From a virus (taxonomy: Duplodnaviria; Caudoviricetes): a stretch of 55,022 nt of DNA. The notes below the pieces were generated by a model. That model searched no databases. It saw nothing but the letters and a program-made list of their open reading frames with translations, and was not told where the DNA came from. How positions within the stretch are numbered: the stretch's first letter is position 1; every line of letters begins with the position of its first letter. Positions 19,379 to 50,140 of this stretch are shown here, piece after piece. The stretch is taken from positions 1 to 55,022 of the IMG/VR virus record IMGVR_UViG_3300026382_000019, one strand, 5' to 3'. The position numbers were made by a program, and so were the translations under genes.

Positions 19379-20290
19379 TTACTTAAATAGCGCTAAATCT
19401 GATAAATCTACGTCGAATTTTCCGAGGAAACCACTAACGCCATTGCCAGCATCATACATTTTTTCATCCAATGGGTTTACTGCCATCCCACTTCTATTCA
19501 ATAAGAAAAATATTTGCTCTCCAGTTTCTGGGTCGATTGTATCAATCCATTGTGTTGTATAATGAGAATAAATTGTTGAACCTTTTGAGTATCCATTGCC
19601 TTTAATCCCGAAAACCACTGAGTCAGTGCCATCATTTGGATGAGTATAATCGATGTAATATTCTACACCTGAAACTCTGCCTAGGTATGAAGGACTTATA
19701 TTATCGTTAATGCCTTCATTATTTGTGTCATTCAGTGTACCTCCCAAAAGACTTGCTACATTTGATGATACAACAGCCCAACCCAAAGGACTTCTATTAT
19801 CAGAAATTGGCAAGTCACAAAGGCCTTTATTTACCGTGATTGCAATTGATTGTCCTACAGCCCACAATAAATTGTCAAAATCTGCACCAGAAAATGTAAG
19901 AGTTGCTTTAGTGCTTGCTCTATTTTTTACCATTGTAAGGAAATCATCATCAACTTTGTATGTCATTTCATCAACCAAATAATGCGCCAGAACTTCATAA
20001 AAATCATCTCCATATATGTTTTGTAAGTCCTGTAAAGCCTCTTTTGTAAATTCTGTTCTAATTTTTTTAGAAACAGCCTTTATGTCTGCTTTAGCAATAG
20101 ACAATTTTCCTGTTCCTTTATCCCATTGTGCTCCTGAAATTATTCCCACTGGACCAGTCATAGGTTGAAGGTCTGAAACTCTCCTCGCTATACTTCTTTT
20201 TTTCAGAATTTTGTCTATGTTACCTAACAGTTTTGGCTGGTCGATTATAGAATTTTCTTCATTTAAGATTTGTTCTTGATTCTCCATCAT
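19379..20290 (-). CDS. gp23/gp24-family capsid protein paralogue (short, vertex-like)
   Basis: QPMTGPVG, KIRTEFTKEALQDLQNIYG, LVDEM..VD and GYSKGSTIYSHY match the T4 major capsid signature; late promoter at 20309-20316. Confidence 0.75.
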   Translation of the reverse strand: MMENQEQILNEENSIIDQPKLLGNIDKILKKRSIARRVSDLQPMTGPVGIISGAQWDKGTGKLSIAKADIKAVSKKIRTEFTKEALQDLQNIYGDDFYEVLAHYLVDEMTYKVDDDFLTMVKNRASTKATLTFSGADFDNLLWAVGQSIAITVNKGLCDLPISDNRSPLGWAVVSSNVASLLGGTLNDTNNEGINDNISPSYLGRVSGVEYYIDYTHPNDGTDSVVFGIKGNGYSKGSTIYSHYTTQWIDTIDPETGEQIFFLLNRSGMAVNPLDEKMYDAGNGVSGFLGKFDVDLSDLALFK

Positions 20291-20555: not shown

Positions 20556-20575
20556 TTTTATAAATATTTATAAAA
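20556..20575. promoter_or_regulatory. Bidirectional T4-type late promoter (palindrome)
   Basis: Perfect 20-bp palindrome TTTTATAAATATTTATAAAA gives TATAAATA on both strands between divergent genes. Confidence 0.75.
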
Positions 20576-20588
20576 CCATGGAGAAGAA

Positions 20589-21389
20589 ATGTTAAAAAGA
20601 TATAACCCAACAACTCAACCTGACAGCACAATAACTTCATGGGATTTGCCTGATACTTTTGTCGGAGGTACTGTTACCATTTTCATAAATGGTCAAATGT
20701 TAGCATTACAAGATGATGATTCTGAAGTATATGGTTATACTGTTGATGAAGATAATAAAACTCTTGATTTTTATAATGCGCCTTTGGATGGCGATTTTCT
20801 TTATATAATTTATGATTCAGATGGTAGTACTGATGCAGCCTCTGATTATAGTGGTACCGGATTGATGAGATTGAATAAAGGTTTCAATCTAATTTCATAC
20901 CAAGGACAAAAAGAAGCATTATGGGATAAAGACAAATCGCAAATAGATTATAAAGAAGGTATTTTGGCAAATGTACAAAATCTATTTATTGATCAAATAG
21001 AGGATGTCTATGGTGTATCTGCCAACACAATAGTAAGGGAAATACAAACATATGAAACAGACTCAGGAAAATATAGGACATTTAATGTAGGAAATACATC
21101 ACCGGCTTGGTGTGGTAATGCTGAACATATTACAGACTCATCATTATATAGGGAAGCATTAACTGATGGCACAGAATACGGAGATCCTGGTGATAATGAT
21201 TATGTTGTTTATAATCCTAATAATTTTACTTTAAGTAACTGTTATATAGATACTGACACAATAACATCATTGGATATAGATAATAAACTAGAAGATTTAC
21301 CTGCAGGTTTAAGGACAGGTATTTTAATATACATATACCCTGACGCAGATTTATCCAAAACAGATGATTTGTTGGAAATATGGTTTTAG
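20589..21389 (+). CDS. Virion structural protein
   Basis: VTIFINGQ...FYNAP..GD tail-type domain plus IDQIEDVYG domain. Confidence 0.65.
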   Translation: MLKRYNPTTQPDSTITSWDLPDTFVGGTVTIFINGQMLALQDDDSEVYGYTVDEDNKTLDFYNAPLDGDFLYIIYDSDGSTDAASDYSGTGLMRLNKGFNLISYQGQKEALWDKDKSQIDYKEGILANVQNLFIDQIEDVYGVSANTIVREIQTYETDSGKYRTFNVGNTSPAWCGNAEHITDSSLYREALTDGTEYGDPGDNDYVVYNPNNFTLSNCYIDTDTITSLDIDNKLEDLPAGLRTGILIYIYPDADLSKTDDLLEIWF

Positions 21390-21399
21390 GAGATAATAA

Positions 21400-24300
21400 A
21401 TGGCATTAAATTATGATATATCTTGTCATGCTCTTGATGAGTTAGGAGGCAACATTGAAAAGGCCAAGGTACATGCTTATTTCATACAAGTAGATAGTGG
21501 CTCAAGTGAATCGACATGGGATAATGATATAAGACTAACAGCAGGTAATGGTAAAGTTTCTTTTAACCTCGGCGATGATTCTTTTTTGACATCAGAGGGT
21601 ATCATAAAGACAGGAGATAAAGTTCTTATATGTGCATGGGTTTCTGATGGGGATGCAGGGAACAATGATAAATCTTCAAAAGAAAATAATACTATAACAA
21701 AATGTGTTAATTTCATTCATACTGTTGATACAAGCTCTAGTTCATGGTCTGAAGATTTTACAATATTTGATGTCAAAACACCGGTTTGTGATATTTCTAT
21801 ACCAACTGTTAATTATACAGGACATTCTTTTACCATAACTAATAACAGCACTGTTAATCAAGGAAGTTTTGACGATCCAAATTTTGATAGAAGTGATTTA
21901 TATCAAAATATTACAAACTCAGGACAAAATATATATTTAGGATTGAATATCGAAAAAACTATATATAACTATGAAGAAAATTCTTTTGAAGAAAATGTAA
22001 CAAAAAATAATACATATTCATACATCGATGCAGGTGACTATACTATTGTAGTGCGACCATATAATTTCTTGGGATTTTATTGTGAAGTAACAAAAGATGA
22101 ACATATATTATACAATAAACCAAGTATTGATTTTGATTATACTTTTAGTAAATTATTAAATTCTGATAAACATATAGGGGTAGGCAATGATGACAAACTT
22201 ATAACCTCCCAATTAAGTTCTACAAATTACGGAGATACTTGGGAACAGATACAAGCAACCTTTGATTGGGAGATAGCAGATACCAATCAAGATGATTCAA
22301 GTAACACAGATACATATACAGGAAAAGACGAAGATTTTGAGCCAACAAAATATTTTATGTCAAAAGGCGATAAAACAATAACTTTGAAACTAAATTGGAA
22401 TGATGGTTTTGATGATTTTACTGAAACAAAAGAATTAAATCCTTTTCTTGATATATATAATATAAGACAAGAAATTAATATTATTACTCAAAAAGAATAT
22501 ACTGTTAACAATACATATGTTCCGTTGGGTGATAATGATTTGGTTACTCTCAAAAATCTAAATTTTGACAACGCTTCTCAAGATTATGATAGTAATTCTC
22601 AATGGAAAACCCTTGATTATAGTATCACAAAAAAGAAAAATGACGGTTCAGATGACAATGAAAGTTACTCTCTTTCTGCAGAAGATGACGATGATTATTT
22701 TAAAGAAATAGAATTTTTTGTTAAATATTATCATGATACAGATAATCCTTGGTCTATAACACAAGACCTTCTATATTGGGATGGATATAAAGATGTTCAG
22801 AAGAGTATTACAGAAGATTATACATCAGAAAAATACTCAATAACTCACAATTTTTATTGGGAAACAGATAGACACGGCAAAGAAAAAAATATTGTTGATG
22901 ATAATGATATGGTTTCTGTATTTAATACATCTATATTTGGTCCTCAAAATAATCAGGATATAGTTATAAAGGATTATTATGATGTCAGGAAAGAAAAGTA
23001 TGCATCATATACAGATGACACCATAGAAGATGACACAGAAGAATTTGAATATACAGAAGATAACCTTACTAATGTTTCAACATTTTATGTAAGAAAGGAT
23101 GGTGATTTTGAAATTGAGAATATAATAACATATTATAATGGTTATGATGAGGTACAATCAACCAAAACAAGAACACTAACTGCATCTGTGCTTATACCTA
23201 ATATAATATTTAATTATACTTCAAGATTAGGTACAAATAAAGATATAGTAGGAAGAGATGATACTGTAACTTTTATTAATAGTTCTTATTTATCCGATTA
23301 TTATAATACAGAATACTCAAAAACAGGTTCAAGGAATCTAAGCATAGATTGGTATTTTTCAAATGATAAAACAAAAGATAATTTCTCAAATATCAATGCA
23401 ATAGGAGGAGATACTTTTACTGAAGATGAAATAAATACAGACGAATTTTTGGATTATGGTATGGAAGATGAACCTAAAATAAATTATTGGAGTATAGGAG
23501 ATCATGATGCAGAAATGATTTTTTATTATAATGATGGTTACTTTAATAGAGATAAAAACTTAATAAAAACAACAAAAACTATACCATATTCTAATCTAAA
23601 TCCTGACGCTACATATACTAATACTGTACCAGATAGAAATACAGAAATATCTTTTATAGATAATAGTACAAATAATGAAAATAGAATAATAGATATAGAT
23701 TGGTCGCTAACAGACAGATATGAAGATAATTCTATGACAACTGATAAAAGGGGAGAAAACAATTTACAGACTTGGTTGAATGCAGGGAGAACAGAAGAAA
23801 TTACAACAACTGTAAATTCAAATGAAAATCATACTTTATCACAAGATACAATAAGATGGGATAATGGTTTTTCATTAATAAATTTCAATAATTCTTATAC
23901 TATATATACAACTAAATATAATATAAACCCTTTATTTAGTTATAAACAAGAATTCGTAACAGGTCCCGAAATTATATTTACTAATGAAAGCACTCCTAAT
24001 GATAATGCTGTTTTATTGCAATATGATTATGAGATTTCGGACACAGATAATGATGGTAATGATGCATTTGTGGCATATAGAGATATAGACATAAGTACAG
24101 CTGAACAAAAGCACACTTATAAAAGTGTGAGTAATTCTCCATTTGAAGATGATGAAGCAAATAAAGAGGTTATTATATTTCAGGATTATGATGATGGATG
24201 GAATGAAGTTTATGATAATTATACAGAATTAATATTGGTAAAACCAAATAGAATATCTCAAGATTTTTTATTGACACCAATAAGACATGAATCAGACACC

Positions 24301-24426
24301 GAAACAGCCAATAATATTATTACAGGAAATAATCCTATAGAATTTCACGATACTTCAAGCACAGAAAGAACGGATGATTTATTTATTACTAATGTAAAAT
24401 ATACTATTATTGAGACGTGTACATAA
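21400..24426 (+). CDS. Large acidic PKD/Ig-like repeat protein (1008 aa), probable virion fibre or decoration
   Basis: About 120-aa repeats each containing W/Y-x-D/N-G-Y/F (WNDGF, YWDGY, YYNGY, YNDGY, WDNGF, YDDGW) and F-x-N-x-S. Confidence 0.7.
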   Translation: MALNYDISCHALDELGGNIEKAKVHAYFIQVDSGSSESTWDNDIRLTAGNGKVSFNLGDDSFLTSEGIIKTGDKVLICAWVSDGDAGNNDKSSKENNTITKCVNFIHTVDTSSSSWSEDFTIFDVKTPVCDISIPTVNYTGHSFTITNNSTVNQGSFDDPNFDRSDLYQNITNSGQNIYLGLNIEKTIYNYEENSFEENVTKNNTYSYIDAGDYTIVVRPYNFLGFYCEVTKDEHILYNKPSIDFDYTFSKLLNSDKHIGVGNDDKLITSQLSSTNYGDTWEQIQATFDWEIADTNQDDSSNTDTYTGKDEDFEPTKYFMSKGDKTITLKLNWNDGFDDFTETKELNPFLDIYNIRQEINIITQKEYTVNNTYVPLGDNDLVTLKNLNFDNASQDYDSNSQWKTLDYSITKKKNDGSDDNESYSLSAEDDDDYFKEIEFFVKYYHDTDNPWSITQDLLYWDGYKDVQKSITEDYTSEKYSITHNFYWETDRHGKEKNIVDDNDMVSVFNTSIFGPQNNQDIVIKDYYDVRKEKYASYTDDTIEDDTEEFEYTEDNLTNVSTFYVRKDGDFEIENIITYYNGYDEVQSTKTRTLTASVLIPNIIFNYTSRLGTNKDIVGRDDTVTFINSSYLSDYYNTEYSKTGSRNLSIDWYFSNDKTKDNFSNINAIGGDTFTEDEINTDEFLDYGMEDEPKINYWSIGDHDAEMIFYYNDGYFNRDKNLIKTTKTIPYSNLNPDATYTNTVPDRNTEISFIDNSTNNENRIIDIDWSLTDRYEDNSMTTDKRGENNLQTWLNAGRTEEITTTVNSNENHTLSQDTIRWDNGFSLINFNNSYTIYTTKYNINPLFSYKQEFVTGPEIIFTNESTPNDNAVLLQYDYEISDTDNDGNDAFVAYRDIDISTAEQKHTYKSVSNSPFEDDEANKEVIIFQDYDDGWNEVYDNYTELILVKPNRISQDFLLTPIRHESDTETANNIITGNNPIEFHDTSSTERTDDLFITNVKYTIIETCT

Positions 24427-37399: not shown

Positions 37400-37827
37400 A
37401 TATAAACCTTTTCATTATTTTTCTGTAATTGGATATATTCTTTAATAGGAGTCTTTTTTCTTCTTTTCAGAAATTTTTCAAATAATTTATCTACCAATTT
37501 TTCATGTTCAATGGCTTCTTTGTTATTTTTCTTATAAATCTTTTCATACAATTCTTCGAAGGCATCCATTATAAGGATATATTCTCTATCGTCTGAGATA
37601 TTTTTTATTTGGGTTTCATTATAATCAGGTGATAGATTTATTATTATTTCTCTTTCCCCTATTCTTGCTGTAAAATATGTAGCTTCTTTATTGACATATA
37701 ATTGCATACCATTAATATCTTCGATTAAGCCTGACTCCTTGGTTTTGACTATTTCTTTTCTTATAAAAGAAGCTAGTTTCAGAAAAGGCTTTTTAAAATC
37801 TTTTTCTGTATAACTACTCATATTCAA
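37396..37827 (-). CDS. Hypothetical protein
   Basis: Operonic ORF. Confidence 0.6.
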   Translation of the reverse strand: MNMSSYTEKDFKKPFLKLASFIRKEIVKTKESGLIEDINGMQLYVNKEATYFTARIGEREIIINLSPDYNETQIKNISDDREYILIMDAFEELYEKIYKKNNKEAIEHEKLVDKLFEKFLKRRKKTPIKEYIQLQKNNEKVYI

Positions 37828-38294
37828 TTTCCCATTATTTTATCAAATACAGTCCAATTTGGTGAATATCGTGAATGCTCTTTAACAGCACTATATCCTG
37901 TTTTATATGCATAGACATCGCCGTCAAAATTAACAATACATTCAACAGCACAAGCAACACCAGCACTTCTACTTTGCCCTGCCATACAATGAACTAAGAA
38001 GTTTCTATCTTTATTTCTTTCAATAAATTTTCTTATAAATTTTCCTTGTTCATCAGTAATAGGTGTGTATTTTCCTATTGCTTCTTCAATATCCCAAAAT
38101 CTTATTTCAAGAGTTTCATCGTAACTTCTCATAACCATTTTATTGTGAAATTCAATATCTGGATCATGGATACAGATTATGGCAGTATTACCTGGAATTA
38201 GCCCTTCGTTATGCAACAATAAAAATTCTTGCCTTGATACTATTCCTTGGAACAGATCATTTTTTAGATAATTTTTCAATTTGAGTGTTGTCAT
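37824..38294 (-). CDS. Protein tyrosine / dual-specificity phosphatase
   Basis: CX5R loop VHCMAGQSRS; upstream F.DI acid; PN motif. Confidence 0.85.
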   Translation of the reverse strand: MTTLKLKNYLKNDLFQGIVSRQEFLLLHNEGLIPGNTAIICIHDPDIEFHNKMVMRSYDETLEIRFWDIEEAIGKYTPITDEQGKFIRKFIERNKDRNFLVHCMAGQSRSAGVACAVECIVNFDGDVYAYKTGYSAVKEHSRYSPNWTVFDKIMGN

Positions 38295-38864: not shown

Positions 38865-40103
38865 CTATTCTGCTGCCATTTTGGGATCTGATTTTTTATC
38901 CCTAAATTTATTATATGAGTATGTGATATTCACTGACTCATTTTGAAACTCATCTATATTAAACATATAATCCATCATGATATTTTCCATAACATTTCTC
39001 AGACCCCTAGCACCAGTCTTTTTCGTGAGAGCAATCTCAGCAATCTCATTGATTGCTTTCTCATCAAAATTTAGACTAACATCAGAGAGGTTAAATAATG
39101 TTTTATATTGTTCGATAATGCTATCGCTAGGTTCAGTCATAATCCTTTTCATTGCATCTTTATCAATTTCATGCAATTCTACGATACCTGAAAATCGTCC
39201 TATGAACTCAGGAATCAGGCCAAAATTTATCAAATCTTCTGTGTCCGGAACTTCCTTGATCTCAGTCTGAACAGTACCTAGAGCAGACATTTTCACACCC
39301 GGAGTATCCTTCAGTCCAACAAAAGCACCACCGGCAATGAACAGAATGTCCTTAGTGTTAATCTCCACTGCTTGACCAGATTTTCTATTTTTTCCTGAAC
39401 CTTCAGGATAAAATTTAACAATGTCACCTTCTAAAATTTTCAAGAGTTCTTGCTGAACAGCCTTTCCTGAAACGTCCTTGTTGTTCGTTCCGCCAGTGCT
39501 TGCTCTGTTTTTGTCGATTTCGTCCAAAAAGATTATGCCTTTTTCGGCTTTCTGGACGTTTTCTCCTGAATCCTTCCATAATCGTTCAAGGACTGATGAT
39601 ACATCCTCTCCAATGTATCCTGCTGCGGTGAGTGATGTTGTGTTTACAATTGCTAACGGAATATCCAAATGTTTCGCGATTGTCTCTGCAAGGTACGTTT
39701 TTCCTGAACCTGTTGGCCCGATAAACAGAATATTGGATTTGTCTATTTTTAGGTCTGGATTTTTTGTTCTCTGAATATGATTGTATATAGCAACCGATAG
39801 CACTTTTTTTGCTTCATGCTGTCCGACAACATATTCATCCAGAATTGCCTTATAATCCTTAGGCATTGTTGGTTTTTCGGGACCATTAGGCTTGATTGAT
39901 GCTTCAAGTTCCTCTGACGCTTCTTTCATTGATATATTTCTAGGTTTTATGAATTCTGCTTGGTCTTGCAAAAATATCAAATATAATGCTGTTTCGGCAC
40001 ATGACTTACATATGTTAGTATTGTCGCCCTTGATAACTCTATTTTCTTCTGAATCTTTTGTCGAACAAAAGCTACATGTCAATTCTTGGTCTTTATCTTG
40101 CAT
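38865..40103 (-). CDS. clpX: ClpX-like AAA+ unfoldase
   Basis: C4 zinc finger CSFC/CKSC, LDEYVVGQ, KSNILFIGPTGSGKT, GYIGED, LDEIDK, VQQELLKILEG, GLIPEFIGR, TGARGLR. Confidence 0.93.
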   Translation of the reverse strand: MQDKDQELTCSFCSTKDSEENRVIKGDNTNICKSCAETALYLIFLQDQAEFIKPRNISMKEASEELEASIKPNGPEKPTMPKDYKAILDEYVVGQHEAKKVLSVAIYNHIQRTKNPDLKIDKSNILFIGPTGSGKTYLAETIAKHLDIPLAIVNTTSLTAAGYIGEDVSSVLERLWKDSGENVQKAEKGIIFLDEIDKNRASTGGTNNKDVSGKAVQQELLKILEGDIVKFYPEGSGKNRKSGQAVEINTKDILFIAGGAFVGLKDTPGVKMSALGTVQTEIKEVPDTEDLINFGLIPEFIGRFSGIVELHEIDKDAMKRIMTEPSDSIIEQYKTLFNLSDVSLNFDEKAINEIAEIALTKKTGARGLRNVMENIMMDYMFNIDEFQNESVNITYSYNKFRDKKSDPKMAAE

Positions 40104-40147: not shown

Positions 40148-40155
40148 TATAAATA
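40148..40155 (+). promoter_or_regulatory. T4-type late promoter of the signalling operon
   Basis: TATAAATA 20 nt before ATG 40176, followed by AAGGAG. Confidence 0.6.
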
Positions 40156-40175
40156 CTTAAAAAAAGGAGCATAAT

Positions 40176-40640
40176 ATGAAAGAACTCATAAAAATCGACC
40201 AATCATTACAAAAATTACAAAATGACTTTAACTCTCAACTTGAAGTTCTCGGATCAGATACTAAAGAATTTCATAATGCTTTGATAGAATTGAGTTCGAA
40301 ATATCCTGACCATAAGGAATTGCTTCAGTTTATTGTTTTTATAAATGACAAACTTGAAATTAACCAAAATTTATTTGGTGAAATTGTATCAGATTCATTC
40401 AATGAAATGATAAGACTCAAGAAGGAATTGATATGTGATATCATGTCAAAACATGGACCATCGAAGGACACTCAAAAAGATGAAGGATCATTGTGGAGCA
40501 AAACAAAAGACTTCATTGGCTCATTTAAAAATGCAAAAATTATTCTGACTGCAATGGCAGTCATAGCACTAGCAGCAGCGGTCATCATTGCACCTGCAAT
40601 GTTTTTAAAAATTATCACTGCACTAGCAAAATTATTATAG
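40176..40640 (+). CDS. Coiled-coil protein with a C-terminal membrane anchor
   Basis: Helical N-terminus; hydrophobic C-terminal segment of about 30 aa. Confidence 0.7.
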   Translation: MKELIKIDQSLQKLQNDFNSQLEVLGSDTKEFHNALIELSSKYPDHKELLQFIVFINDKLEINQNLFGEIVSDSFNEMIRLKKELICDIMSKHGPSKDTQKDEGSLWSKTKDFIGSFKNAKIILTAMAVIALAAAVIIAPAMFLKIITALAKLL

Positions 40641-40655
40641 GATTAGGAGGATAAA

Positions 40656-41354
40656 ATGTTTAAGGGAATTACAGAATTTACAAAAAAATTATTCGAGAGG
40701 ACTTTTGAGAGGACTGACGAGCAAGGCACTACTGAGGAAGACCTTTTCGATGACGAACCTGAGATTCAGGATGATTGTTCTGTTTGTGAATTGAGACATC
40801 AGTGTGTAACAAAAAGGGCATGCGAAAAAGGTTTGGTACCTAAGCTTGATGGTATAGATACATCAAAAGATACACTCCTTATTATTGATGATAATGAGGG
40901 AGTGGTGTCATTCCTAAAAGATGATATAGAATACTTTTTTGAAAATGACATAATCAAAAGGGATGAAATTAATTTACTCGCACTTACTGGCACTGATGCT
41001 GCATTTGCATTGCAAAGAATTTACAAGAGAGGCATTGATATCAAAATAAAATGGGCTATCATAGATATAACACTCGGTGGAAGTAAAATGACTGAGAATG
41101 GAAATATTAAACTTACAGGAGTTGATGTCTTTGAGGAGATTTTCAAACATACACCCGAAAAAGAGGATTTCAAATTTTTATTTTATACAGGGAATAACCT
41201 TAATCCTTATATAAAGTCTAATGAAAAACTTATTGAGCAATTTAAAGTAGTAAAAAATGAGGGTATTAAAAAATATGTTTTATTCAAAACATCAATTGAT
41301 ATAAAGTCAAGAAGGAGTTATATTTCAAAATTTCTCTTCGGGAAGAAAATCTAA
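40656..41354 (+). CDS. Stand-alone response regulator receiver protein with an N-terminal Cys cluster
   Basis: LLIIDDNEG, AIIDITL (phospho-Asp), GVDVFEEI, FLFYTG, LFK; N-terminal CSVC-x5-C-x5-C. Confidence 0.75.
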   Translation: MFKGITEFTKKLFERTFERTDEQGTTEEDLFDDEPEIQDDCSVCELRHQCVTKRACEKGLVPKLDGIDTSKDTLLIIDDNEGVVSFLKDDIEYFFENDIIKRDEINLLALTGTDAAFALQRIYKRGIDIKIKWAIIDITLGGSKMTENGNIKLTGVDVFEEIFKHTPEKEDFKFLFYTGNNLNPYIKSNEKLIEQFKVVKNEGIKKYVLFKTSIDIKSRRSYISKFLFGKKI

Positions 41355-41368
41355 AATAAGGAAATGAA

Positions 41369-42637
41369 ATGATAAATATACATGACGCGATTATCACATT
41401 AAAAAGCCATATCAAGAATATAATTATATTTTTGGTTTTGGTTAATGTTATAGCACTTGGGAGTTTTGCTGTTGTTTTTAACATTCATACTGATTACATT
41501 GATAAGCAATTAGACAATAATATTATAGAGTACCAAGAGATTGATCAAGAGCAATTATGTAAATTGGTAAATTGTAAGGGAGTTATTACAAGTTCACACA
41601 AACTATTTAGTCCTGACGAAAAAGGGCACCTAAAGATTGCAGAATATAAAGAATATAGTATGCACAAAATCAATAAAAATTTATTTTTGTTTGATACTGA
41701 TGAACTTGCATTGTATAATAAAGTTGCAGATTCATATTACATTATGGATACATCAAAAATATCAGATGATTACGGGGATATTGCAATGATCTTCATTCCA
41801 TTAATGTGTCTGATTTATCTTGTGCCACTATATAATTCCATAAAGAGGGAAAAAGAGGAGGCTCTTATTCTGAATGCTGGTTCGGAGGCTTTGCTTGCTA
41901 ACAAATCCATGATTAACATAACAGAGAATATACATCATGAATTAAATACACCCCTTGAGGTTATCGATAATAAAATTGAAAAAATTCATACAGAATTGAG
42001 TAATTTTTTACTTGAGGAATACGAAGCAACTGAGAATATTGATACCATTCCTGAGGATAGAATAAAACGAAATAAAAGGATTGTAAAACTCAACGGAGAT
42101 TTTGAATTCATTAGGACATCATCAGAGCAAATCTATGCAGTCCTTGAGAAAATGAAAGGATTCAAACACCTCAGATATAGCAACGGAAACAAATCTCTGA
42201 AAAATATTATTGATGGAGGATTTAAAATTATAAATATTAGCAACACAAACTTTGAATATAAGGTCGATCCTAAATTAGCACAATACAAAATAGGCACCAA
42301 ACTCCTTGTTAATGCAGATTTTTTGAGTATTATTTTAAATCATCTTAAAAATTCTTTGGAAGCCAATGCTTCCAAAATTTTTATTTTATTCAGTAAGTCT
42401 GATGAAAATAATGTGTATATTAGGATTATAGATAATGGAAATGGTATACCTAAAGATGCTCAAAAGAAAATATTTGCACCTAATTTCAGTACCAAAAACT
42501 CTGATACAGGAATTAGAGGAAACGGAATGTACCTAAACAAACATATAATGGAGAATGCAGGCGGAAGTATATCATTGATTTCATCAAGTAAAAAAGGAAC
42601 TACGATAGAATTGAAAATTCCTTCTATAAAAAAATAA
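41369..42637 (+). CDS. Membrane sensor histidine kinase
   Basis: Two TM helices flanking an extracytoplasmic loop; H-box IHHELNTPL, N-box NHLKNSLEA, G1 DNGNGIP, F IFAPNFSTK, G2 GIRGNGMY, GT. Confidence 0.9.
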   Translation: MINIHDAIITLKSHIKNIIIFLVLVNVIALGSFAVVFNIHTDYIDKQLDNNIIEYQEIDQEQLCKLVNCKGVITSSHKLFSPDEKGHLKIAEYKEYSMHKINKNLFLFDTDELALYNKVADSYYIMDTSKISDDYGDIAMIFIPLMCLIYLVPLYNSIKREKEEALILNAGSEALLANKSMINITENIHHELNTPLEVIDNKIEKIHTELSNFLLEEYEATENIDTIPEDRIKRNKRIVKLNGDFEFIRTSSEQIYAVLEKMKGFKHLRYSNGNKSLKNIIDGGFKIINISNTNFEYKVDPKLAQYKIGTKLLVNADFLSIILNHLKNSLEANASKIFILFSKSDENNVYIRIIDNGNGIPKDAQKKIFAPNFSTKNSDTGIRGNGMYLNKHIMENAGGSISLISSSKKGTTIELKIPSIKK

Positions 42638-42651
42638 GGAGGTACAGAAAT

Positions 42652-42942
42652 ATGAAGATTTTAAGGGTGCTTGTGATATTATTGATATTTTGTAATGTTG
42701 CTGTACCAAAAGAAACTCGAGAATATATGGATACAAAGGAAGAGATTATATTGGTTCTTCGTCATTCAGATTGTGACATCGAATCAAAATCCGTTAAAGG
42801 ATGGATCAGAATTTTTAACTCTGATGACAGACTTAAGGATTATGGTATATATATATCAGAAAAACAAAGAATAATATTTTTGAGTTATTTTAAACATAAA
42901 TTAGAAGAAAAGCAAAATAGATATAAAAGGGAGATAAAATAA
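42652..42942 (+). CDS. Small exported protein
   Basis: Signal-peptide-like start MKILRVLVILLIFC; AGGAGG RBS. Confidence 0.65.
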   Translation: MKILRVLVILLIFCNVAVPKETREYMDTKEEIILVLRHSDCDIESKSVKGWIRIFNSDDRLKDYGIYISEKQRIIFLSYFKHKLEEKQNRYKREIK

Positions 42943-44192
42943 TGGGCAAAATAAATAAATTATTATTGATGATATTAATCACATCAGTTCTTACCTTAAA
43001 TCTTATGGCTGATAATAACATGAATTTCAGCGGGATCATGAACATAGGTTATGGCCATGCTGAAAAAAACTTTTCGAACAAGGAAAATGAAACAAAAGAG
43101 ATTTATACATCAAACCTTCAACTTAATGCAGATTACGAAACTAATGATTTCTATTTTCAGAGTACACTTTTTGGGTATGTATATACGATGCCAAATAATC
43201 AAAAAGCACATCTCATAAATTATCATGATGGATATGAGAAACAGGATGTATTTTTCAGAAGCCTTTACGGAAGTTACAAAATTAATCAAAATTTATCAGT
43301 GGGAGCAGGATACCTTGCATTCAGCAATTCTACACCATCAAAATATAACAACGATTACATTCAAGACGGCGAAGGAATCTATATGCTTAATGATAATACC
43401 CTAGCGGCAGTTTTTGCAGTGTATAAGGAAGGCAATTCCAGGACTATCGTGGGAATAGGAACAATCGATGAGACTTTTATTAATACCGGAATGTACATTG
43501 ATGATGCTTTGAGACAAGGGGGAGCATATACAATTTTTGCAATTAACACATACAAATATGAAAGATTTACATTTACATCAGAATTTTTGTATAATTCTTT
43601 AACATATGAGAAAAAAGATTTGAGTGATATTTATCAAGTCGGTTTTGCCACGGCATGGGATGATTCAGAAAATTCTGGATGGTCACTCTATAATGTCCTT
43701 GGCGCAAGTATATATGATAATCATAATGAAGATGCCAAAGAGGAAATTTTCAAAAATGTACTTGGGCCTAAGGCAAAATATGGCGATTATATTTTGGCTA
43801 AATATCCTAATAATTTTGCTATTGAGAACAAAAAATATTATGGTGCGGCAATGCTATGGGGTTTCAGAAAAGATTTTGATATTGATAGGCAAGAATTTTT
43901 CGTCACTGCAGAGTGGTTCCATACTTTTGGTGATTGGACATCAGGCAATCAAGGAAACATTTATTTGTGTCAGGATAATCAGGTTTTTAATATTAGAGAT
44001 GATTCATATTATGCGACATTAGGATATATAATTAATGATCAAGCTACTGTGAAATTTGTGTATACATATTCAGAATATAATGAAAAGGGCAAAATTGGTG
44101 CACCAGCAAGCACTGTAGATACTGAAGATTATATAGGTCCTCAAATTAATAAAATAGAAATTATAAGATTTATATTTTCGTATAAATTTTAG
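42942..44192 (+). CDS. Outer-membrane beta-barrel (porin-like) protein
   Basis: Signal peptide ending LMA, alternating aromatic/hydrophobic strands, C-terminal beta-signal RFIFSYKF. Confidence 0.7.
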   Translation: MGKINKLLLMILITSVLTLNLMADNNMNFSGIMNIGYGHAEKNFSNKENETKEIYTSNLQLNADYETNDFYFQSTLFGYVYTMPNNQKAHLINYHDGYEKQDVFFRSLYGSYKINQNLSVGAGYLAFSNSTPSKYNNDYIQDGEGIYMLNDNTLAAVFAVYKEGNSRTIVGIGTIDETFINTGMYIDDALRQGGAYTIFAINTYKYERFTFTSEFLYNSLTYEKKDLSDIYQVGFATAWDDSENSGWSLYNVLGASIYDNHNEDAKEEIFKNVLGPKAKYGDYILAKYPNNFAIENKKYYGAAMLWGFRKDFDIDRQEFFVTAEWFHTFGDWTSGNQGNIYLCQDNQVFNIRDDSYYATLGYIINDQATVKFVYTYSEYNEKGKIGAPASTVDTEDYIGPQINKIEIIRFIFSYKF

Positions 44193-44208: not shown

Positions 44209-44745
44209 TTATTTTTCTAAAATTTCCTTTAATACAGAGAACATAAAATGAATTTTTTTATCTGTAAGTTTTTTGAATGTTTCTAAATCATCATTTTTTA
44301 TAGCATTTCTAACTTTAGTGGCTGAAATATCTTCATCAGTCCTTTTAATTTCTTTGATTTCCAATGTTCTATCGTTTTCCATATATTTCATAAAAGATTT
44401 ATATGCTTTAACTCTATCAGAGCCTGCATAGGCAACGAACTTAGTTCCATCAGGAAGTTTGTTTAATTCATCAACAAAAAATCCAGTGCTAATTATTTTA
44501 ATTTGAACATTTTTTGGTGCTATTAATTCTAGCATTTTTTTCTGAATCTCTGTATCAAATGGATTTTTGGTTTTATCTTCTGATGACTTTTTACCTTTGA
44601 CCAAAAATATTATAACTTTTTTATTTTCTTTTGCCATTGTATTAATGATAGATGAGTGAGCTTTTGTGACAGGTTGGAAACGTCCACTAAAGATTCCTAC
44701 AGAATCTTTAGCTTCATTTAGTGCTATTTCTTTAAATGTTCTCAT
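44209..44745 (-). CDS. HIGH-family nucleotidyltransferase (cytidyltransferase-like) with a capsid-targeting N-terminus
   Basis: Start MRTFKEIALNE at 44745 (AGGAG); GRFQPVTKAH, NPF, AGSDR, ISATKVR. Confidence 0.82.
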   Translation of the reverse strand: MRTFKEIALNEAKDSVGIFSGRFQPVTKAHSSIINTMAKENKKVIIFLVKGKKSSEDKTKNPFDTEIQKKMLELIAPKNVQIKIISTGFFVDELNKLPDGTKFVAYAGSDRVKAYKSFMKYMENDRTLEIKEIKRTDEDISATKVRNAIKNDDLETFKKLTDKKIHFMFSVLKEILEK

Positions 44746-45691
44746 TGTTTTTCTCCTGCAACATAGAATCATGATTGATATAATCCTTAAAAGATATGTT
44801 TTCTAACATCAGTTTTTCTACTTTATCCAAAGCCTTTTGCTTATCTATTCCTTTTTGTTTACCTGCCTCACCTGATTTAATAGAAACCATACTTTTGAAT
44901 ACTCCTTGAAGTCTTCTTAGACTTCTAGCAAGCTTGAATGTACTTTTTATTTGTTTTAGTAATTTGTCAAAAGATAGTGACAAATCCAGTTTGTATAATA
45001 TTATTTGCAAGTCATTCCAATTCCTTGATGTCCATATTACTTCTTGCTTTATAGTTTTATATTCTTTATTTTTAAGTTTATCGGGATCATAAGTAATCTT
45101 CCTTAATTGAATTTCTTTGGAACTACAATTAAACTCTATCTCCATATTTTTTTCAAGTTCTGGTTTTTTGATTTTCAAATCTTTTAATATTTTATTGGCA
45201 TTGAATTCTATCATAGCAACCTTAGTTGCTCCCAACACAATACCTTGCTTCGCTGCTGGCATATCCAAGAAATCTTTTTTGAATCTTGTTTCTGAAGCAT
45301 CCATAGCAATCATGTAATCGACTTGACATGCCTGAATAGAAGGGTTCGGCACATTAAGAGAAATAGTGATAATTTCTCCTGAGTTATAGTATCTTTTTCC
45401 TGCATATTTTTCTGACACAAAAGGAACGATTAGTTTGTCTGATTGTGACACAAAATGTTTTGCTAGTGCAGATTTGATTTTCTTTTTATCATTATCGTAA
45501 AGAGAGCCATCAATATGTGTGATTAAATCTATATCACCAAATTTAGTTTTCTTTTTATCTGAATTATATGAGCCTGTAGGCTCGATTGATACAAATCCAG
45601 GGAAATCAGAAATGATTTCCTTTGCTGTTTTTAATATCTCCCTAAAGTCTTTTCTGCTTTGTATTTTATTATTTCCTGTTACACCTGACAT
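44732..45691 (-). CDS. Pol-beta-superfamily nucleotidyltransferase
   Basis: TGSY...GDIDL and a third Asp in CQVDYM. Confidence 0.72.
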   Translation of the reverse strand: MSGVTGNNKIQSRKDFREILKTAKEIISDFPGFVSIEPTGSYNSDKKKTKFGDIDLITHIDGSLYDNDKKKIKSALAKHFVSQSDKLIVPFVSEKYAGKRYYNSGEIITISLNVPNPSIQACQVDYMIAMDASETRFKKDFLDMPAAKQGIVLGATKVAMIEFNANKILKDLKIKKPELEKNMEIEFNCSSKEIQLRKITYDPDKLKNKEYKTIKQEVIWTSRNWNDLQIILYKLDLSLSFDKLLKQIKSTFKLARSLRRLQGVFKSMVSIKSGEAGKQKGIDKQKALDKVEKLMLENISFKDYINHDSMLQEKNNENI

Positions 45692-48532: not shown

Positions 48533-50140
48533 TTAATCAATTAGTTCAAGTCCTAATTTTTCTAAATCCCTTATCCTTACATTATACATATATAGTAAAT
48601 GCTCTTTTATTTCTTCTATATCAATATTTAATTTTTTGCAAATAATTTCCTGATTTTTGATATAATTTTTATTTTTCATTAAATCTTCTATATTAAAGAA
48701 TGTTAAATTTTTATATTTTTCGTAATTTTCATGGATTTGCTTTTTCTCAGAATCACTCAAAATGTTAAAATCAAAAACAGGGAGGTTTAACAATTGCTTT
48801 CCTCCAACCTCTTTAATCACTCCTCGTTTATTTTTTCTACCTGACCTTTTGGTGCCATTTTTGATAAAAGCCTCAATAACCAAAAGGGAAGGTAATGACA
48901 TCATCAATATAGGAATAACTTCAGTATCAATACTTTTCGGGTTTAGTCTGACATACTTTGAAGATAATACACATTCTTCTTTATATGTAAATAATCTAGG
49001 ATATAAATCAATAGCCATTGTATAAAAAACAGAATTTTTATGAATATTGTACCTTGTTAGGTTCACATCAGAATATTTTACATAATATTCTAGGTCTTCC
49101 TCTTTAAGATTTTCTCTATATATGGCAGGAGAATTTACTCTAGCCTGCTTTTGGTAAAAAAGTTTTATATTTCCTTTTTCTTTTTTATTATGTATTTTAT
49201 TATCTTTTAGTAACGAAGCAAAATTTAATCCTGCAGTTTCTAATGATATATACTCGCTCAATGGCTCAAAGTCCTTTGTTATTTTTTGAGTGTATTCATA
49301 TGACTCATTGTACATTATAAGTCTATTTTTCATATTATGAGTATTACTAATAGGGTCATCAATAGGAACATTAATAATTTTATCATTGAGGCTAAACTCT
49401 GTATCAGTTACTGAATTCAATATAATATCATTATTATTTTTATCATTACTCTTATCATTCGTGATATATACACCTATGGCATTGGTGTCATCCCTGAAAA
49501 AAGGATAAAAATTACTTGTAATTAGTCTATCTAATCTAAAATGATTTGATGTTTTTGGTCCTAATATCTTCCTTAGGACATCGCCATATCGTGTTTCCAA
49601 CCATTTATCGGCACACAAAAACACCAATTCTCCATCCTCATCGAGATGCGATAAGCATTTTAGATAAAAATAAATGTAAATGTCAGACCTTAAATCTACG
49701 TCCTCTCGTTTGATACCTAGAACATCAAAATCAATATTATCCTTGATAGCCTCTATATACTCAGATTTTGACATACTGTCATGTTTTATATTTCTGTAGC
49801 TGATGTAAGGAGGATTGGTAATGATGAGAGAATATTTTTTGTCATTTTTTGATAACAAAAAATCTTCATGATACAGGTTCGTATTTTTCTGAACATCAAT
49901 CACATCCAATGCTGTCTTTTCGATGTCATAACAGTCATATTCGAGATATTCATCTATATTGTCTAGGCAAGCATAATAAAAACTCCCTGTGCCCACTGAA
50001 GGGTCAAGGATTCTTTTTTGCTTTTTGTTTTCTATCTTTGAACAAATCTTGTCTGATACAAAAGGATGAGTATATGTATTTCCTAGGTTTCTATCTTTAT
50101 CAATGTTAAAATTTTTATTTACATCCCATATTGCTTTCAA
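48533..50140 (-). CDS. N6-adenine DNA methyltransferase (gamma class)
   Basis: Motif I LDPSVGTG, EDFL, motif IV NPPY, DIYIYF. Confidence 0.88.
   Translation of the reverse strand: MKAIWDVNKNFNIDKDRNLGNTYTHPFVSDKICSKIENKKQKRILDPSVGTGSFYYACLDNIDEYLEYDCYDIEKTALDVIDVQKNTNLYHEDFLLSKNDKKYSLIITNPPYISYRNIKHDSMSKSEYIEAIKDNIDFDVLGIKREDVDLRSDIYIYFYLKCLSHLDEDGELVFLCADKWLETRYGDVLRKILGPKTSNHFRLDRLITSNFYPFFRDDTNAIGVYITNDKSNDKNNNDIILNSVTDTEFSLNDKIINVPIDDPISNTHNMKNRLIMYNESYEYTQKITKDFEPLSEYISLETAGLNFASLLKDNKIHNKKEKGNIKLFYQKQARVNSPAIYRENLKEEDLEYYVKYSDVNLTRYNIHKNSVFYTMAIDLYPRLFTYKEECVLSSKYVRLNPKSIDTEVIPILMMSLPSLLVIEAFIKNGTKRSGRKNKRGVIKEVGGKQLLNLPVFDFNILSDSEKKQIHENYEKYKNLTFFNIEDLMKNKNYIKNQEIICKKLNIDIEEIKEHLLYMYNVRIRDLEKLGLELID

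What the first reader, a model, noticed from the sequence alone, without database searches (positions are those of the whole stretch)
40148..44192. Phage-encoded, late-expressed envelope-spanning signalling operon (histidine kinase, receiver, membrane protein, exported protein, beta-barrel)
Seen: five tightly coupled plus-strand genes in a minus-strand region, headed by TATAAATA, the same motif found before structural genes here. The kinase has intact H/N/G1/F/G2 boxes and an extracytoplasmic loop. The receiver has all catalytic residues but no DNA-binding domain. Known: complete two-component pairs and porins are rare in lytic T4-like phages. Inference: an outer-membrane to cytoplasm relay that lets the infected cell sense an outside cue late in infection (superinfection, cell density, nutrient) and act post-translationally, for example on lysis timing, analogous to T4 lysis inhibition but built from phosphorelay parts.
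Basis: partly seen in the sequence, partly recalled or inferred. Interest (0 to 1): 0.9.

Follow-up and report, generated by a model that had tools for sequence, protein, structure and literature searches.

The report
Phage-owned two-component signalling operon
An uncultured T4-like phage carries its own intact sensor kinase, a very divergent phosphate-receiving switch protein, a membrane-anchored partner, a small secreted protein and a porin-like outer-membrane barrel behind a late-type promoter, so the virus probably senses the cell envelope late in infection, perhaps to time host bursting, though no step has been tested at the bench.

Summary
Five tightly spaced plus-strand genes (40176-44192) lie between minus-strand phage genes and are headed by TATAAATA. 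In gene order they encode:
- a tail-anchored membrane protein (g1);
- a stand-alone CheY-fold receiver (g2) with invariant DD/D/T/K;
- a two-TM histidine kinase with an invariant H box and N/G1/F/G2 boxes;
- a small Sec-exported protein (g4);
- a porin-fold barrel (g5).

The cassette belongs to phages, not to a host. I found 44 distinct related loci, nearly all on viral or metagenomic contigs. Only two short MAG contigs turned up in 185,579 species genomes, and none of the five parts matched 50,697 cultured phage records.

The g1-receiver-kinase trio is the constant core. g4 is present in 19 of 26 loci and the barrel in 16 of 26, so the barrel is dispensable. This weakens the "outer-membrane-to-cytoplasm relay" reading.

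In three contigs without a Gp23 match, two of them complete with terminal repeats, the trio directly follows lysis or lysis-like genes. That gives contextual, not direct, support for lysis timing.

TATAAATA behaves as a real promoter motif: 15 of 24 copies lie 18-29 nt upstream of same-strand ATG starts. It also precedes capsid genes.

This scan has noted the same kind of trio before on other DNA. My paper searches found no description of it. The output remains unknown.

The parts
40148..40155 (+). TATAAATA, a T4-late-type promoter motif 20 nt upstream of the g1 ATG
   Evidence: The same motif lies 23-51 nt upstream of g1 in 19 of 29 related loci. It also lies 24 nt before the Gp23-like ATG of the complete relative G001.
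40176..40640 (+). g1: 154-aa tail-anchored membrane protein of an undescribed family. It has an N-terminal helical region with the motif KYPxxKELxxFxVxxND and a C-terminal hydrophobic segment at 117-154.
   Evidence: No Pfam or PHROG family, no PDB relative and no usable Atlas hit. Detected upstream of the receiver in 31 of 39 evaluable loci.
40656..41354 (+). g2: 232-aa stand-alone receiver. A variable Cys-rich N-terminal part of about 70 aa precedes a CheY-like (beta-alpha)5 domain at 72-228. The phospho-acceptor candidate is D137.
   Evidence: At least 4 Cys in the first 95 aa in 32 of 43 members. The family holds 314 clusters at E <= 0.001 among 1.84 billion representatives.
41369..42637 (+). 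Membrane histidine kinase, 422 aa: TM1, a periplasmic loop of about 100 aa with conserved C64/C69, TM2, a DHp region with the H box HHELNTPL (H189/H190), and a HATPase_c catalytic domain.
42652..42942 (+). g4: 96-aa exported protein with a Sec-type signal and no conserved lipobox Cys. The mature part of about 70 aa has invariant G50 W51 R53 Y64.
   Evidence: Present in 19 of 26 loci with sequence after the kinase, including 3 loci without the barrel.
42942..44192 (+). g5: 416-aa porin-like outer-membrane beta-barrel with a signal peptide, about 16-18 strands, and a C-terminal ...YKF.
   Evidence: No Pfam family above cut-off. Present in 16 of 26 evaluable loci.

Best explanation
This is a signalling module that belongs to phages, not to a host. 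It is transcribed from a T4-type late promoter.

**Shown**
- An intact membrane histidine kinase with an extracytoplasmic loop.
- A co-inherited stand-alone receiver that keeps every phospho-acceptor residue and has no output domain.
- A tail-anchored inner-membrane protein (g1) that travels with them.
- In this lineage, two additions: a small periplasmic protein and a porin-fold outer-membrane barrel.

**Inferred**
- The kinase reads a periplasmic or envelope cue through its loop. The loop has a conserved Cys pair and an acidic EYxEID stretch. The secreted g4 may act as a co-sensor.
- The kinase sets the phosphorylation state of the receiver. The H box has the form H-E-x-x-T, which I recall as the form of bifunctional kinase/phosphatases.
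- The receiver acts by protein contact, most likely on g1 at the inner membrane, to tune a late membrane event.
- My best guess for that event is the time of holin triggering, meaning lysis delay or release. That would be functionally analogous to T4 lysis inhibition but built from phosphorelay parts.
- The barrel is an accessory, not the obligatory sensor.

I put about 0.85 on the anatomy and phage ownership and about 0.3 on the lysis-timing output. The figure below is for the whole chain.
For: - **Kinase and receiver anatomy.**
- **Co-inheritance.** The kinase follows the receiver in 39 of 40 loci with at least 600 nt downstream. g1 is detected upstream in 31 of 39 loci.
- **Phage ownership.** Replication and capsid genes lie all round. 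The DNA polymerase is T4 gp43-like. Twelve viral and 35 metagenomic loci were found, against 2 short MAG contigs in the species-genome collection. Cassette GC is 0.285-0.334 in a window that ranges from 0.243 to 0.387.
- **Spread across phage types.** A Gp23 match is found in G001 but not in G002 or G004, which are complete genomes with terminal repeats and carry the trio.
- **Promoter.**
- **Lysis context.** In L014 and L016 the order is GH108 endolysin (divergent), GTA_holin_3TM holin, g1, receiver, kinase on one strand (PF11351 at 3.5e-12 and 3.2e-14; phrog_3427 holin at 7e-29 and 1e-28). In L013 a DUF5675 protein and a 204-205-aa multi-TM protein immediately precede g1, with the start overlapping. 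A preprint classes DUF5675 as a C82-peptidase-like lysin domain (10.64898/2026.04.11.717860, passages seen).
- **g4 and the kinase.** g4 persists without the barrel in 3 loci, which ties g4 to the kinase more than to the barrel.
Against: - No step is tested. There are no RNA data, and no contact or phosphotransfer has been shown.
- The lysis neighbourhood is seen in only 3 of 28 loci with at least 2.5 kb upstream. L014 and L016 are one lineage. L033 has a spanin-like pair only by my own reading.
- Among 63 flanking ORFs from 19 loci without ClpX, PHROGs called only 2 holins and 2 endolysins. The other neighbours are structural, replication or homing genes.
- In the window's own lineage the neighbour is a divergently transcribed ClpX-like gene (13 of 28 loci). 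No lysis gene is seen in the 55-kb fragment.
- g1 matches no holin or antiholin family.
- The receiver fails Pfam's Response_reg model.
- Many of the loci are related to one another, so the counts are not independent events.
Confidence: 0.4

Rival explanations
1. The barrel and the exported protein form the outer end of a physical relay. It passes an outside cue across the periplasm to the kinase loop and on to the receiver.
For: - All five genes form one tightly spaced operon, and g4 and g5 overlap by 1 nt.
- g4 and g5 occur together after the kinase in 16 of 26 loci, across diverged relatives down to about 21-23% identity.
- As I recall it, outer-membrane partners feeding inner-membrane phosphorelays are known (RcsF with OmpA/BamA, NlpE-Cpx).
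Against: - Ten of 26 loci lack the barrel and 7 lack both g4 and g5, yet they keep the trio.
- g4 has no conserved lipobox Cys, so it is not an RcsF- or NlpE-type lipoprotein.
- The barrel's fold and Atlas neighbours are ordinary diffusion or specific porins.
- No contact has been tested.
Confidence: 0.15
2. g4 and g5 are a separate late cargo that merely shares the operon with the signalling trio. The porin would serve nutrient or ion uptake, or change the surface of the infected cell (receptor masking or exclusion).
For: - The pair can be lost independently of the trio.
- The barrel has a porin fold.
- In L011 the barrel frame is split into two ORFs, which suggests it is dispensable.
Against: - Wherever g4 and g5 occur, they are found only directly behind this kinase.
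- g4 persists alone next to the kinase in 3 loci.
Confidence: 0.2
3. The receiver is a phosphorylation-controlled adaptor or regulator of the adjacent phage ClpX-like unfoldase. This would resemble the single-domain receiver CpdR, which primes ClpXP in Caulobacter (recalled knowledge).
For: - A ClpX-like gene lies next to the cassette in 13 of 28 evaluable loci. In L044 it lies on the other side of the cassette, so adjacency is kept in two arrangements.
- The ClpX-like protein keeps its N-terminal zinc finger, which I recall as the usual adaptor docking site (PF06689 at 4.5e-8).
Against: - ClpX is transcribed from the opposite strand.
- The ClpX-bearing loci are close relatives, effectively one lineage.
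- ClpX is absent from the flanks of the remaining 15 of the 28 evaluable loci, among them L008, L012, L013, L014 and L016.
- This idea leaves the universally linked g1 unexplained.
Confidence: 0.08
4. The module interferes with host signalling. Either the phage kinase phosphorylates host response regulators, or the receiver drains phosphate from host kinases or acts on the flagellar switch like CheY.
For: - The receiver has no output domain.
- Phage-borne phoR and phoB genes have been proposed to act on host partners (PMC10987575, passages seen).
- Other viral HK and receiver annotations exist.
Against: - Kinase and receiver are co-inherited in 39 of 40 loci, as expected for a cognate pair.
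- The receiver family is so divergent that Pfam does not recognise it.
- It has almost no cellular relatives, which argues against mimicry of a host protein.
Confidence: 0.1
5. The cassette is host DNA, present through contamination or a chimeric assembly.
For: - Two relatives lie on contigs binned into bacterial MAGs (L005, L006).
Against: - Those contigs are only 5.8 and 2.0 kb long.
- The same synteny, with the same phage flanks (ClpX-like, nucleotidyltransferases, phrog_1462 protein), recurs on many independent contigs. It also occurs in complete phage genomes with terminal repeats.
- GC matches the window.
- A phage promoter motif heads the cassette.
Confidence: 0.02

Closest known systems
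Classical HisKA/HATPase_c two-component pairs with single-domain receivers (HK853-RR468, KinA-Spo0F, CheY, DivK, CpdR)
   Same: - A membrane kinase with an H box of the H-E-x-x-T-P form and N/G1/F/G2 boxes.
- A receiver with the (beta-alpha)5 fold and the DD/D/T/K set.
- Best structural matches include Rcp1, Spo0F, CheY4 and RR468.
- Output must be by protein contact.
   Different: - It is carried by phages, with almost no cellular relatives.
- The receiver is longer, with a beta-hairpin insert after beta3 and a Cys-rich N-terminal extension, and it is missed by Pfam.
- HisKA is below Pfam's threshold (E 0.055).
- The module has a fixed third partner, the tail-anchored g1.
Phage T4 lysis inhibition: holin T with antiholins RI and RIII (PMC8385771 and PMC11413866, abstracts read)
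   Same: - It is also a late phage function of a T4-like phage that would read a periplasmic cue and act at the inner membrane after translation.
- In other lineages the trio sits directly behind a holin.
   Different: - No homology: g1, g4 and g5 match no PHROG holin or antiholin family.
- T4 uses direct binding of a periplasmic antiholin to the holin, not phosphotransfer.
- The link to lysis here rests on gene neighbourhood only.
Envelope stress phosphorelays with outer-membrane sensors (Rcs with RcsF/OmpA, Cpx with NlpE; recalled knowledge)
   Same: - An outer-membrane barrel, a small exported protein and an inner-membrane kinase encoded together.
   Different: - g4 is not a lipoprotein.
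- The barrel is dispensable.
- The response regulator lacks DNA binding.
- The system is viral.
Phage- and virus-borne two-component genes reported as annotations (phage phoR/phoB auxiliary genes, PMC10987575; receiver and HK entries of uncultured Caudovirales, an Alteromonas phage and giant algal or amoebal viruses in BFVD)
   Same: - Viral genomes that carry HK or receiver domains.
   Different: [quoted passage not shown]
- The present family is phage-specific, comes as a fixed trio with an undescribed membrane protein, and sits in late or lysis contexts.

Membership tests
Sensor histidine kinase (HisKA-type DHp + HATPase_c) | HATPase_c catalytic domain with N, G1, F and G2 boxes | tested here: met
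   PF02518 at 2.5e-17, 63.7 bits against a cut-off of 26.4. N324/N328, D355 G357 G359, F369 and G384 G386 are invariant in 28 members.
Sensor histidine kinase (HisKA-type DHp + HATPase_c) | Phospho-acceptor His in an H box of a DHp helix | tested here: inconclusive
   The motif HHELNTPLE is invariant (H189 H190 E191 N193 P195). However, Pfam HisKA scores only E 0.055, 14 bits against a cut-off of 26.9.
Sensor histidine kinase (HisKA-type DHp + HATPase_c) | Autophosphorylation and transfer to the partner Asp | not testable with these tools
   Needs purified proteins.
Response-regulator receiver (CheY-like) domain | (beta-alpha)5 fold | tested here: met
   The AF2 model has pLDDT 84.6, and over 90 across residues 70-232. 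All listed PDB matches at E <= 0.001 are receiver domains, with target-normalised TM of about 0.6-0.7 for single-domain targets.
Response-regulator receiver (CheY-like) domain | Acidic pair after beta1, phospho-Asp at the end of beta3, Thr/Ser at the end of beta4, Lys after beta5 | tested here: met
   D78 D79, D137, T178 and K211 are invariant in 43 sequences. They lie at the ends of strands 72-78, 130-137, 173-178 and 208-210.
Response-regulator receiver (CheY-like) domain | Match to the Pfam Response_reg profile above its cut-off | tested here: not met
   The window protein has no hit at E <= 0.1, and its receiver part alone has none at E <= 10. Two of 10 distant family members give weak hits (0.0029 and 0.083). 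The PDB profile search gives only E 0.18 to a response regulator.
Outer-membrane porin | Signal peptide, closed beta-barrel of 16-18 strands, C-terminal aromatic residue | tested here: met
   F416 is invariant and the protein ends ...YKF. Foldseek matches porins: OccK8 1.4e-12, OmpM1, Omp32, OprB, MOMP. Atlas feature neighbours are porin clusters, score 0.97.
Outer-membrane porin | Membership of a curated porin sequence family | tested here: not met
   No Pfam family above cut-off; the best is DUF2490 at E 0.044. No PHROG.
T4-type late promoter | TATAAATA placed a fixed short distance upstream of late (structural) genes | tested here: met
   Fifteen of 24 copies lie 18-29 nt before same-strand ATG starts. 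One precedes the Gp23-family gene 19379-20290, and one lies 24 nt before the Gp23-like ATG in G001. The motif is conserved before g1 in 19 of 29 relatives.
T4-type late promoter | Dependence on a gp55-type late sigma, and late timing | not tested
   The window holds only about 29% of the genome. I had no accession for a gp55 family to search with. No RNA run was listed.
T4 lysis-inhibition system (T, RI, RIII) | Homology of any part to holin T or to antiholins RI/RIII | tested here: not met
   g1, g2, g4 and g5 match no PHROG family at E <= 0.01.
Histidine phosphotransfer (HPt) protein, considered for g1 | Invariant phospho-accepting His on a helical bundle | tested here: not met
   Only D58 and K82 are invariant in 29 g1 sequences. 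The His at position 33 is replaced in L014, L016 and L010.
RcsF/NlpE-type outer-membrane lipoprotein sensor, considered for g4 | Lipobox Cys at the signal-peptide cleavage site | tested here: not met
   No conserved Cys in 19 g4 sequences. The invariant residues are M1, G50, W51, R53 and Y64.

The most novel reading that the evidence does not exclude
A phosphorylation-driven lysis clock. Large phages of several unrelated lineages use their own sensor kinase to read the periplasm of the infected cell for superinfection, redox or envelope damage. Through a bare receiver and the tail-anchored protein g1, they hold back or release the holin. In vent T4-like phages this input is widened by a phage-made porin and a periplasmic co-sensor.
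Probability: 0.3. Interest if true: 0.85.

Novelty: new variant of a known kind. Interest (0 to 1): 0.68.

Why it matters
Known phage decision systems use peptide or quorum receptors that act on transcription, or direct antiholin-holin binding as in T4 lysis inhibition. A virus-owned kinase/receiver pair that works late and after translation would be a different way for a lytic phage to read its host or surroundings.

The family is large. The receiver alone has 314 clusters at 50% identity. It is almost absent from cellular genomes and from cultured phages, so a whole class of phage sensing may be unstudied.

It also offers a compact, orthogonal two-component pair with a new membrane partner for bench work.

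Tried and rejected
- **Complex prediction.** Complex prediction with g2 (alignment A1) and g1 residues 1-120 (alignment A4) returned no answer (score 0.00, mark 0.32). I use it neither for nor against binding.
- **Sequencing runs.** The look-up of sequencing runs listed no RNA holder. It gave three DNA runs that may be the source and one with a small share, all labelled hydrothermal vent metagenome.
- **Cultured phages.** There was no match for the DNA, the kinase, the receiver, the barrel or g1.
- **g1.** It has no Pfam or PHROG family, no PDB relative by profile (best E 0.1) and no usable Atlas hit (the Atlas's own model has pLDDT 0.47). I rejected an HPt role because the His is not invariant. 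A viral-contig scan with the g1 profile found 5 loci. Four lie on contigs where the trio had already been found, and the fifth (L058) also shows receiver and kinase downstream. g1 was therefore not found on its own.
- **Fused receiver.** The 7 longest family members I fetched show none.
- **Receiver profile against PDB sequences.** This gave a spurious PI-PLC match (E 0.012) and a response regulator at E 0.18. The fold search settled the question.
- **Terminators.** The scan found no convincing terminator after g5.
- **Literature.** Searches for phage-encoded histidine kinase / response regulator systems and for phage-encoded porins found no description of this module.
- **Host.** It was not determined. 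There are no tRNAs. A Campylobacterota-like diderm host is only a guess, based on 30% GC, the run label and the nearest cultured polymerases being Campylobacter phages at about 29% identity.

Full report
**What is there**

The window is a whole IMG/VR virus record of 55,022 bases, estimated 29% complete. Around the finding lie phage genes:
- a T4 gp43-like DNA polymerase, a primase, a gp32-type SSB, an exonuclease and an RNA ligase;
- a Gp23-family capsid gene at 19379-20290.

The polymerase's best cultured relatives are Campylobacter phages at about 29% identity. This is therefore a distant, uncultured T4-like phage.

Between the minus-strand ClpX-like gene (38865-40103) and a minus-strand nucleotidyltransferase (44209-44772) lie five plus-strand ORFs. 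They are separated by 15, 14 and 14 nt and then a 1-nt overlap, and each has a GGAG-type ribosome site. GC of the cassette (0.285-0.334) lies within the window's range.

**The parts**

- **g1 (40176-40640).** It has a helical N-terminal region with a conserved motif KYPxxKELxxFxVxxND and one C-terminal hydrophobic segment at 117-154. It matches nothing in Pfam, PHROGs, PDB sequences or the Atlas.
- **g2 (40656-41354).** It has no Pfam hit. An alignment of 43 relatives shows invariant D78 D79, D137, T178 and K211. The AlphaFold model (pLDDT 84.6) is a (beta-alpha)5 domain, and these residues sit at the ends of beta1, beta3, beta4 and beta5. All listed PDB matches at E <= 0.001 are receiver domains, including Rcp1, RcsB, Spo0F, CheY4 and RR468. 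The first 70 or so residues are poorly modelled. They carry at least 4 Cys in 32 of 43 members. No DNA-binding domain is present.
- **The kinase (41369-42637).**
  - HATPase_c scores 2.5e-17.
  - The H box HHELNTPLE and the N, G1, F and G2 boxes are invariant in 28 members.
  - Two hydrophobic segments enclose a loop of about 100 residues with conserved C64 and C69.
  - Pfam HisKA is below threshold (E 0.055).
- **g4 (42652-42942).** It has a Sec-type signal and a mature part of about 70 residues with invariant G50 W51 R53 Y64. It has no conserved lipobox.
- **g5 (42942-44192).** It has a signal peptide and a confidently modelled barrel (pLDDT 83.8, pTM 0.80), and it ends in ...YKF. Its best structural matches are porins, and its Atlas neighbours are porin clusters.

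**The promoter**

TATAAATA lies 20 nt before the g1 start. The window has 24 copies against 14.3 +/- 4.0 expected. The position is the stronger signal:
- 15 of 24 copies lie 18-29 nt upstream of a same-strand ATG ORF;
- two more lie before the GTG start at 1599 and the TTG start at 50140.

By my own arithmetic on the 79 ORFs called, about 0.2 such placements are expected by chance.

The motif precedes the Gp23-family gene in the window. It also lies 24 nt before the Gp23-like gene of a complete 193.7-kb relative that carries the same module. It is kept upstream of g1 in 19 of 29 related loci although the flanking bases differ. Three of the ten without it have g1 inside a longer operon.

That TATAAATA is the T4 late promoter is recalled knowledge. 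Late timing here is inferred, not measured.

**Whose genes are they**

None of the DNA, kinase, receiver, barrel or g1 matches 50,697 cultured phage records.

Pattern scans with the receiver profile found:
- 12 viral contigs;
- 35 metagenome contigs;
- 2 contigs in one genome for each of 185,579 species, both short (5.8 and 2.0 kb) MAG pieces.

The receiver family has 107 clusters at 90% identity. Against 1.84 billion representatives it has 314 clusters at E <= 0.001, all about 70-290 residues long. The kinase family has at least 256 members.

The trio also occurs in complete genomes with terminal repeats that give no Gp23 match (G002, 96 kb; G004, 161 kb). It therefore crosses phage lineages. 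The contamination or chimera reading is effectively excluded.

**Synteny counts**

After removing duplicates I had 44 distinct loci, including the window.
- The kinase follows the receiver in 39 of 40 loci with at least 600 nt downstream. The miss, L033, has only 632 nt left.
- g1 is detected upstream in 31 of 39 loci with at least 700 nt upstream. Several misses have a short coiled-coil ORF there instead.
- Of 26 loci with at least 1600 nt after the kinase, 19 have g4 and 16 have g5. Sixteen have both, 3 have g4 only and 7 have neither.
- A ClpX-like gene is within the flank in 13 of 28 loci with at least 2.5 kb upstream.

Many loci are related to each other, so these are counts of sequences, not of independent events.

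**Clues to function**

In L014 and L016 the order is GH108 endolysin (divergent), GTA_holin_3TM holin, g1, receiver, kinase. In L013 a DUF5675 protein and a 204-205-aa multi-TM protein precede g1 with overlapping stop and start. A preprint treats DUF5675 as a C82-peptidase-like lysin domain (passages seen). In L033 I read a TM-plus-coiled-coil ORF and a lipoprotein-like ORF upstream, which is spanin-like by eye only.

Against this, a PHROG scan of 63 flanking ORFs from 19 loci without ClpX found holin and endolysin only in L014 and L016. The window's own lineage shows ClpX, not lysis genes, next to the cassette.

The lysis link is therefore a lead with contextual support in two non-T4 lineages, not a result.

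**What I conclude**

The anatomy, the phage ownership and the late-type promoter are well supported. The constant unit is g1-receiver-kinase. g4 tracks the kinase more closely than the barrel does, and the barrel is an accessory.

Its suggestion of post-translational control of lysis timing remains the best available guess (about 0.3). The rivals are:
- an independent porin cargo;
- a ClpX-adaptor role of the receiver;
- interference with host signalling.

**Relation to what is known**

The parts are ordinary two-component parts by fold and motifs. The receiver fails Pfam's profile, the family is viral, and the fixed third partner is undescribed.

Viral HK and receiver genes exist as annotations: phage phoR/phoB (PMC10987575, passages) and BFVD entries. 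T4 lysis inhibition works by antiholin-holin binding (PMC8385771 and PMC11413866, abstracts).

Five paper searches found no description of this module. Supplements were closed.

Earlier notes of this same scan describe the same kind of trio on other DNA, several times beside lysis genes. They are unchecked AI notes, and I count them as leads, not as independent evidence. My own lysis-context result was obtained before I read them.

Noticed in passing
window 38865-40103 (-): ClpX-like AAA+ protein with an N-terminal ClpX zinc finger (PF06689 at 4.5e-8). The translation contains no IGF, LGF or MGF tripeptide, so, as I recall the role of that tripeptide, it may not dock ClpP. It lies next to the cassette in 13 of 28 evaluable loci, on either side.
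   Followed up: partly
window, 24 sites: TATAAATA marks a set of about 17 genes spread through an otherwise minus-strand replication region, including many small ORFs of unknown function. This gives a map of likely late genes in this phage.
   Followed up: partly
window 20589-24426 (+): A second plus-strand island, also headed by TATAAATA (20559-20566). It holds ORFs of 266 and 1008 aa with no Pfam or PHROG family.
   Followed up: no
window 37824-38294 (-): A 156-aa protein with a sub-threshold dual-specificity phosphatase match (DSPc at 2.8e-6, 27.6 bits against a cut-off of 33.5). It is conserved near the cassette in relatives.
   Followed up: no
L008 9030-9626 and L034 1492-2070: In the 193.7-kb T4-like relative, a 198-aa protein is inserted between receiver and kinase, and g4 and g5 are absent. 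It has hydrophobic N- and C-termini and no family. It may be an alternative periplasmic or membrane accessory.
   Followed up: partly
L011 10181-11314: The barrel gene is split into two ORFs of 129 and 184 aa. This could be a frameshift, a decaying gene or a sequencing error.
   Followed up: no
L033 599-1383: Upstream of the receiver lie two ORFs: a 137-aa ORF with an N-terminal TM and a coiled coil, and a 120-aa ORF with a lipoprotein-like signal. By eye this looks like a spanin pair.
   Followed up: no
window 41369-42637, residues 262-275 of the kinase: An unusually conserved stretch MKGFKHLRYSNGNKS lies between the DHp region and the catalytic domain. M262 K266 Y270 S271 N272 G273 K275 are invariant in 28 members. 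I know of no counterpart in classical kinases.
   Followed up: no
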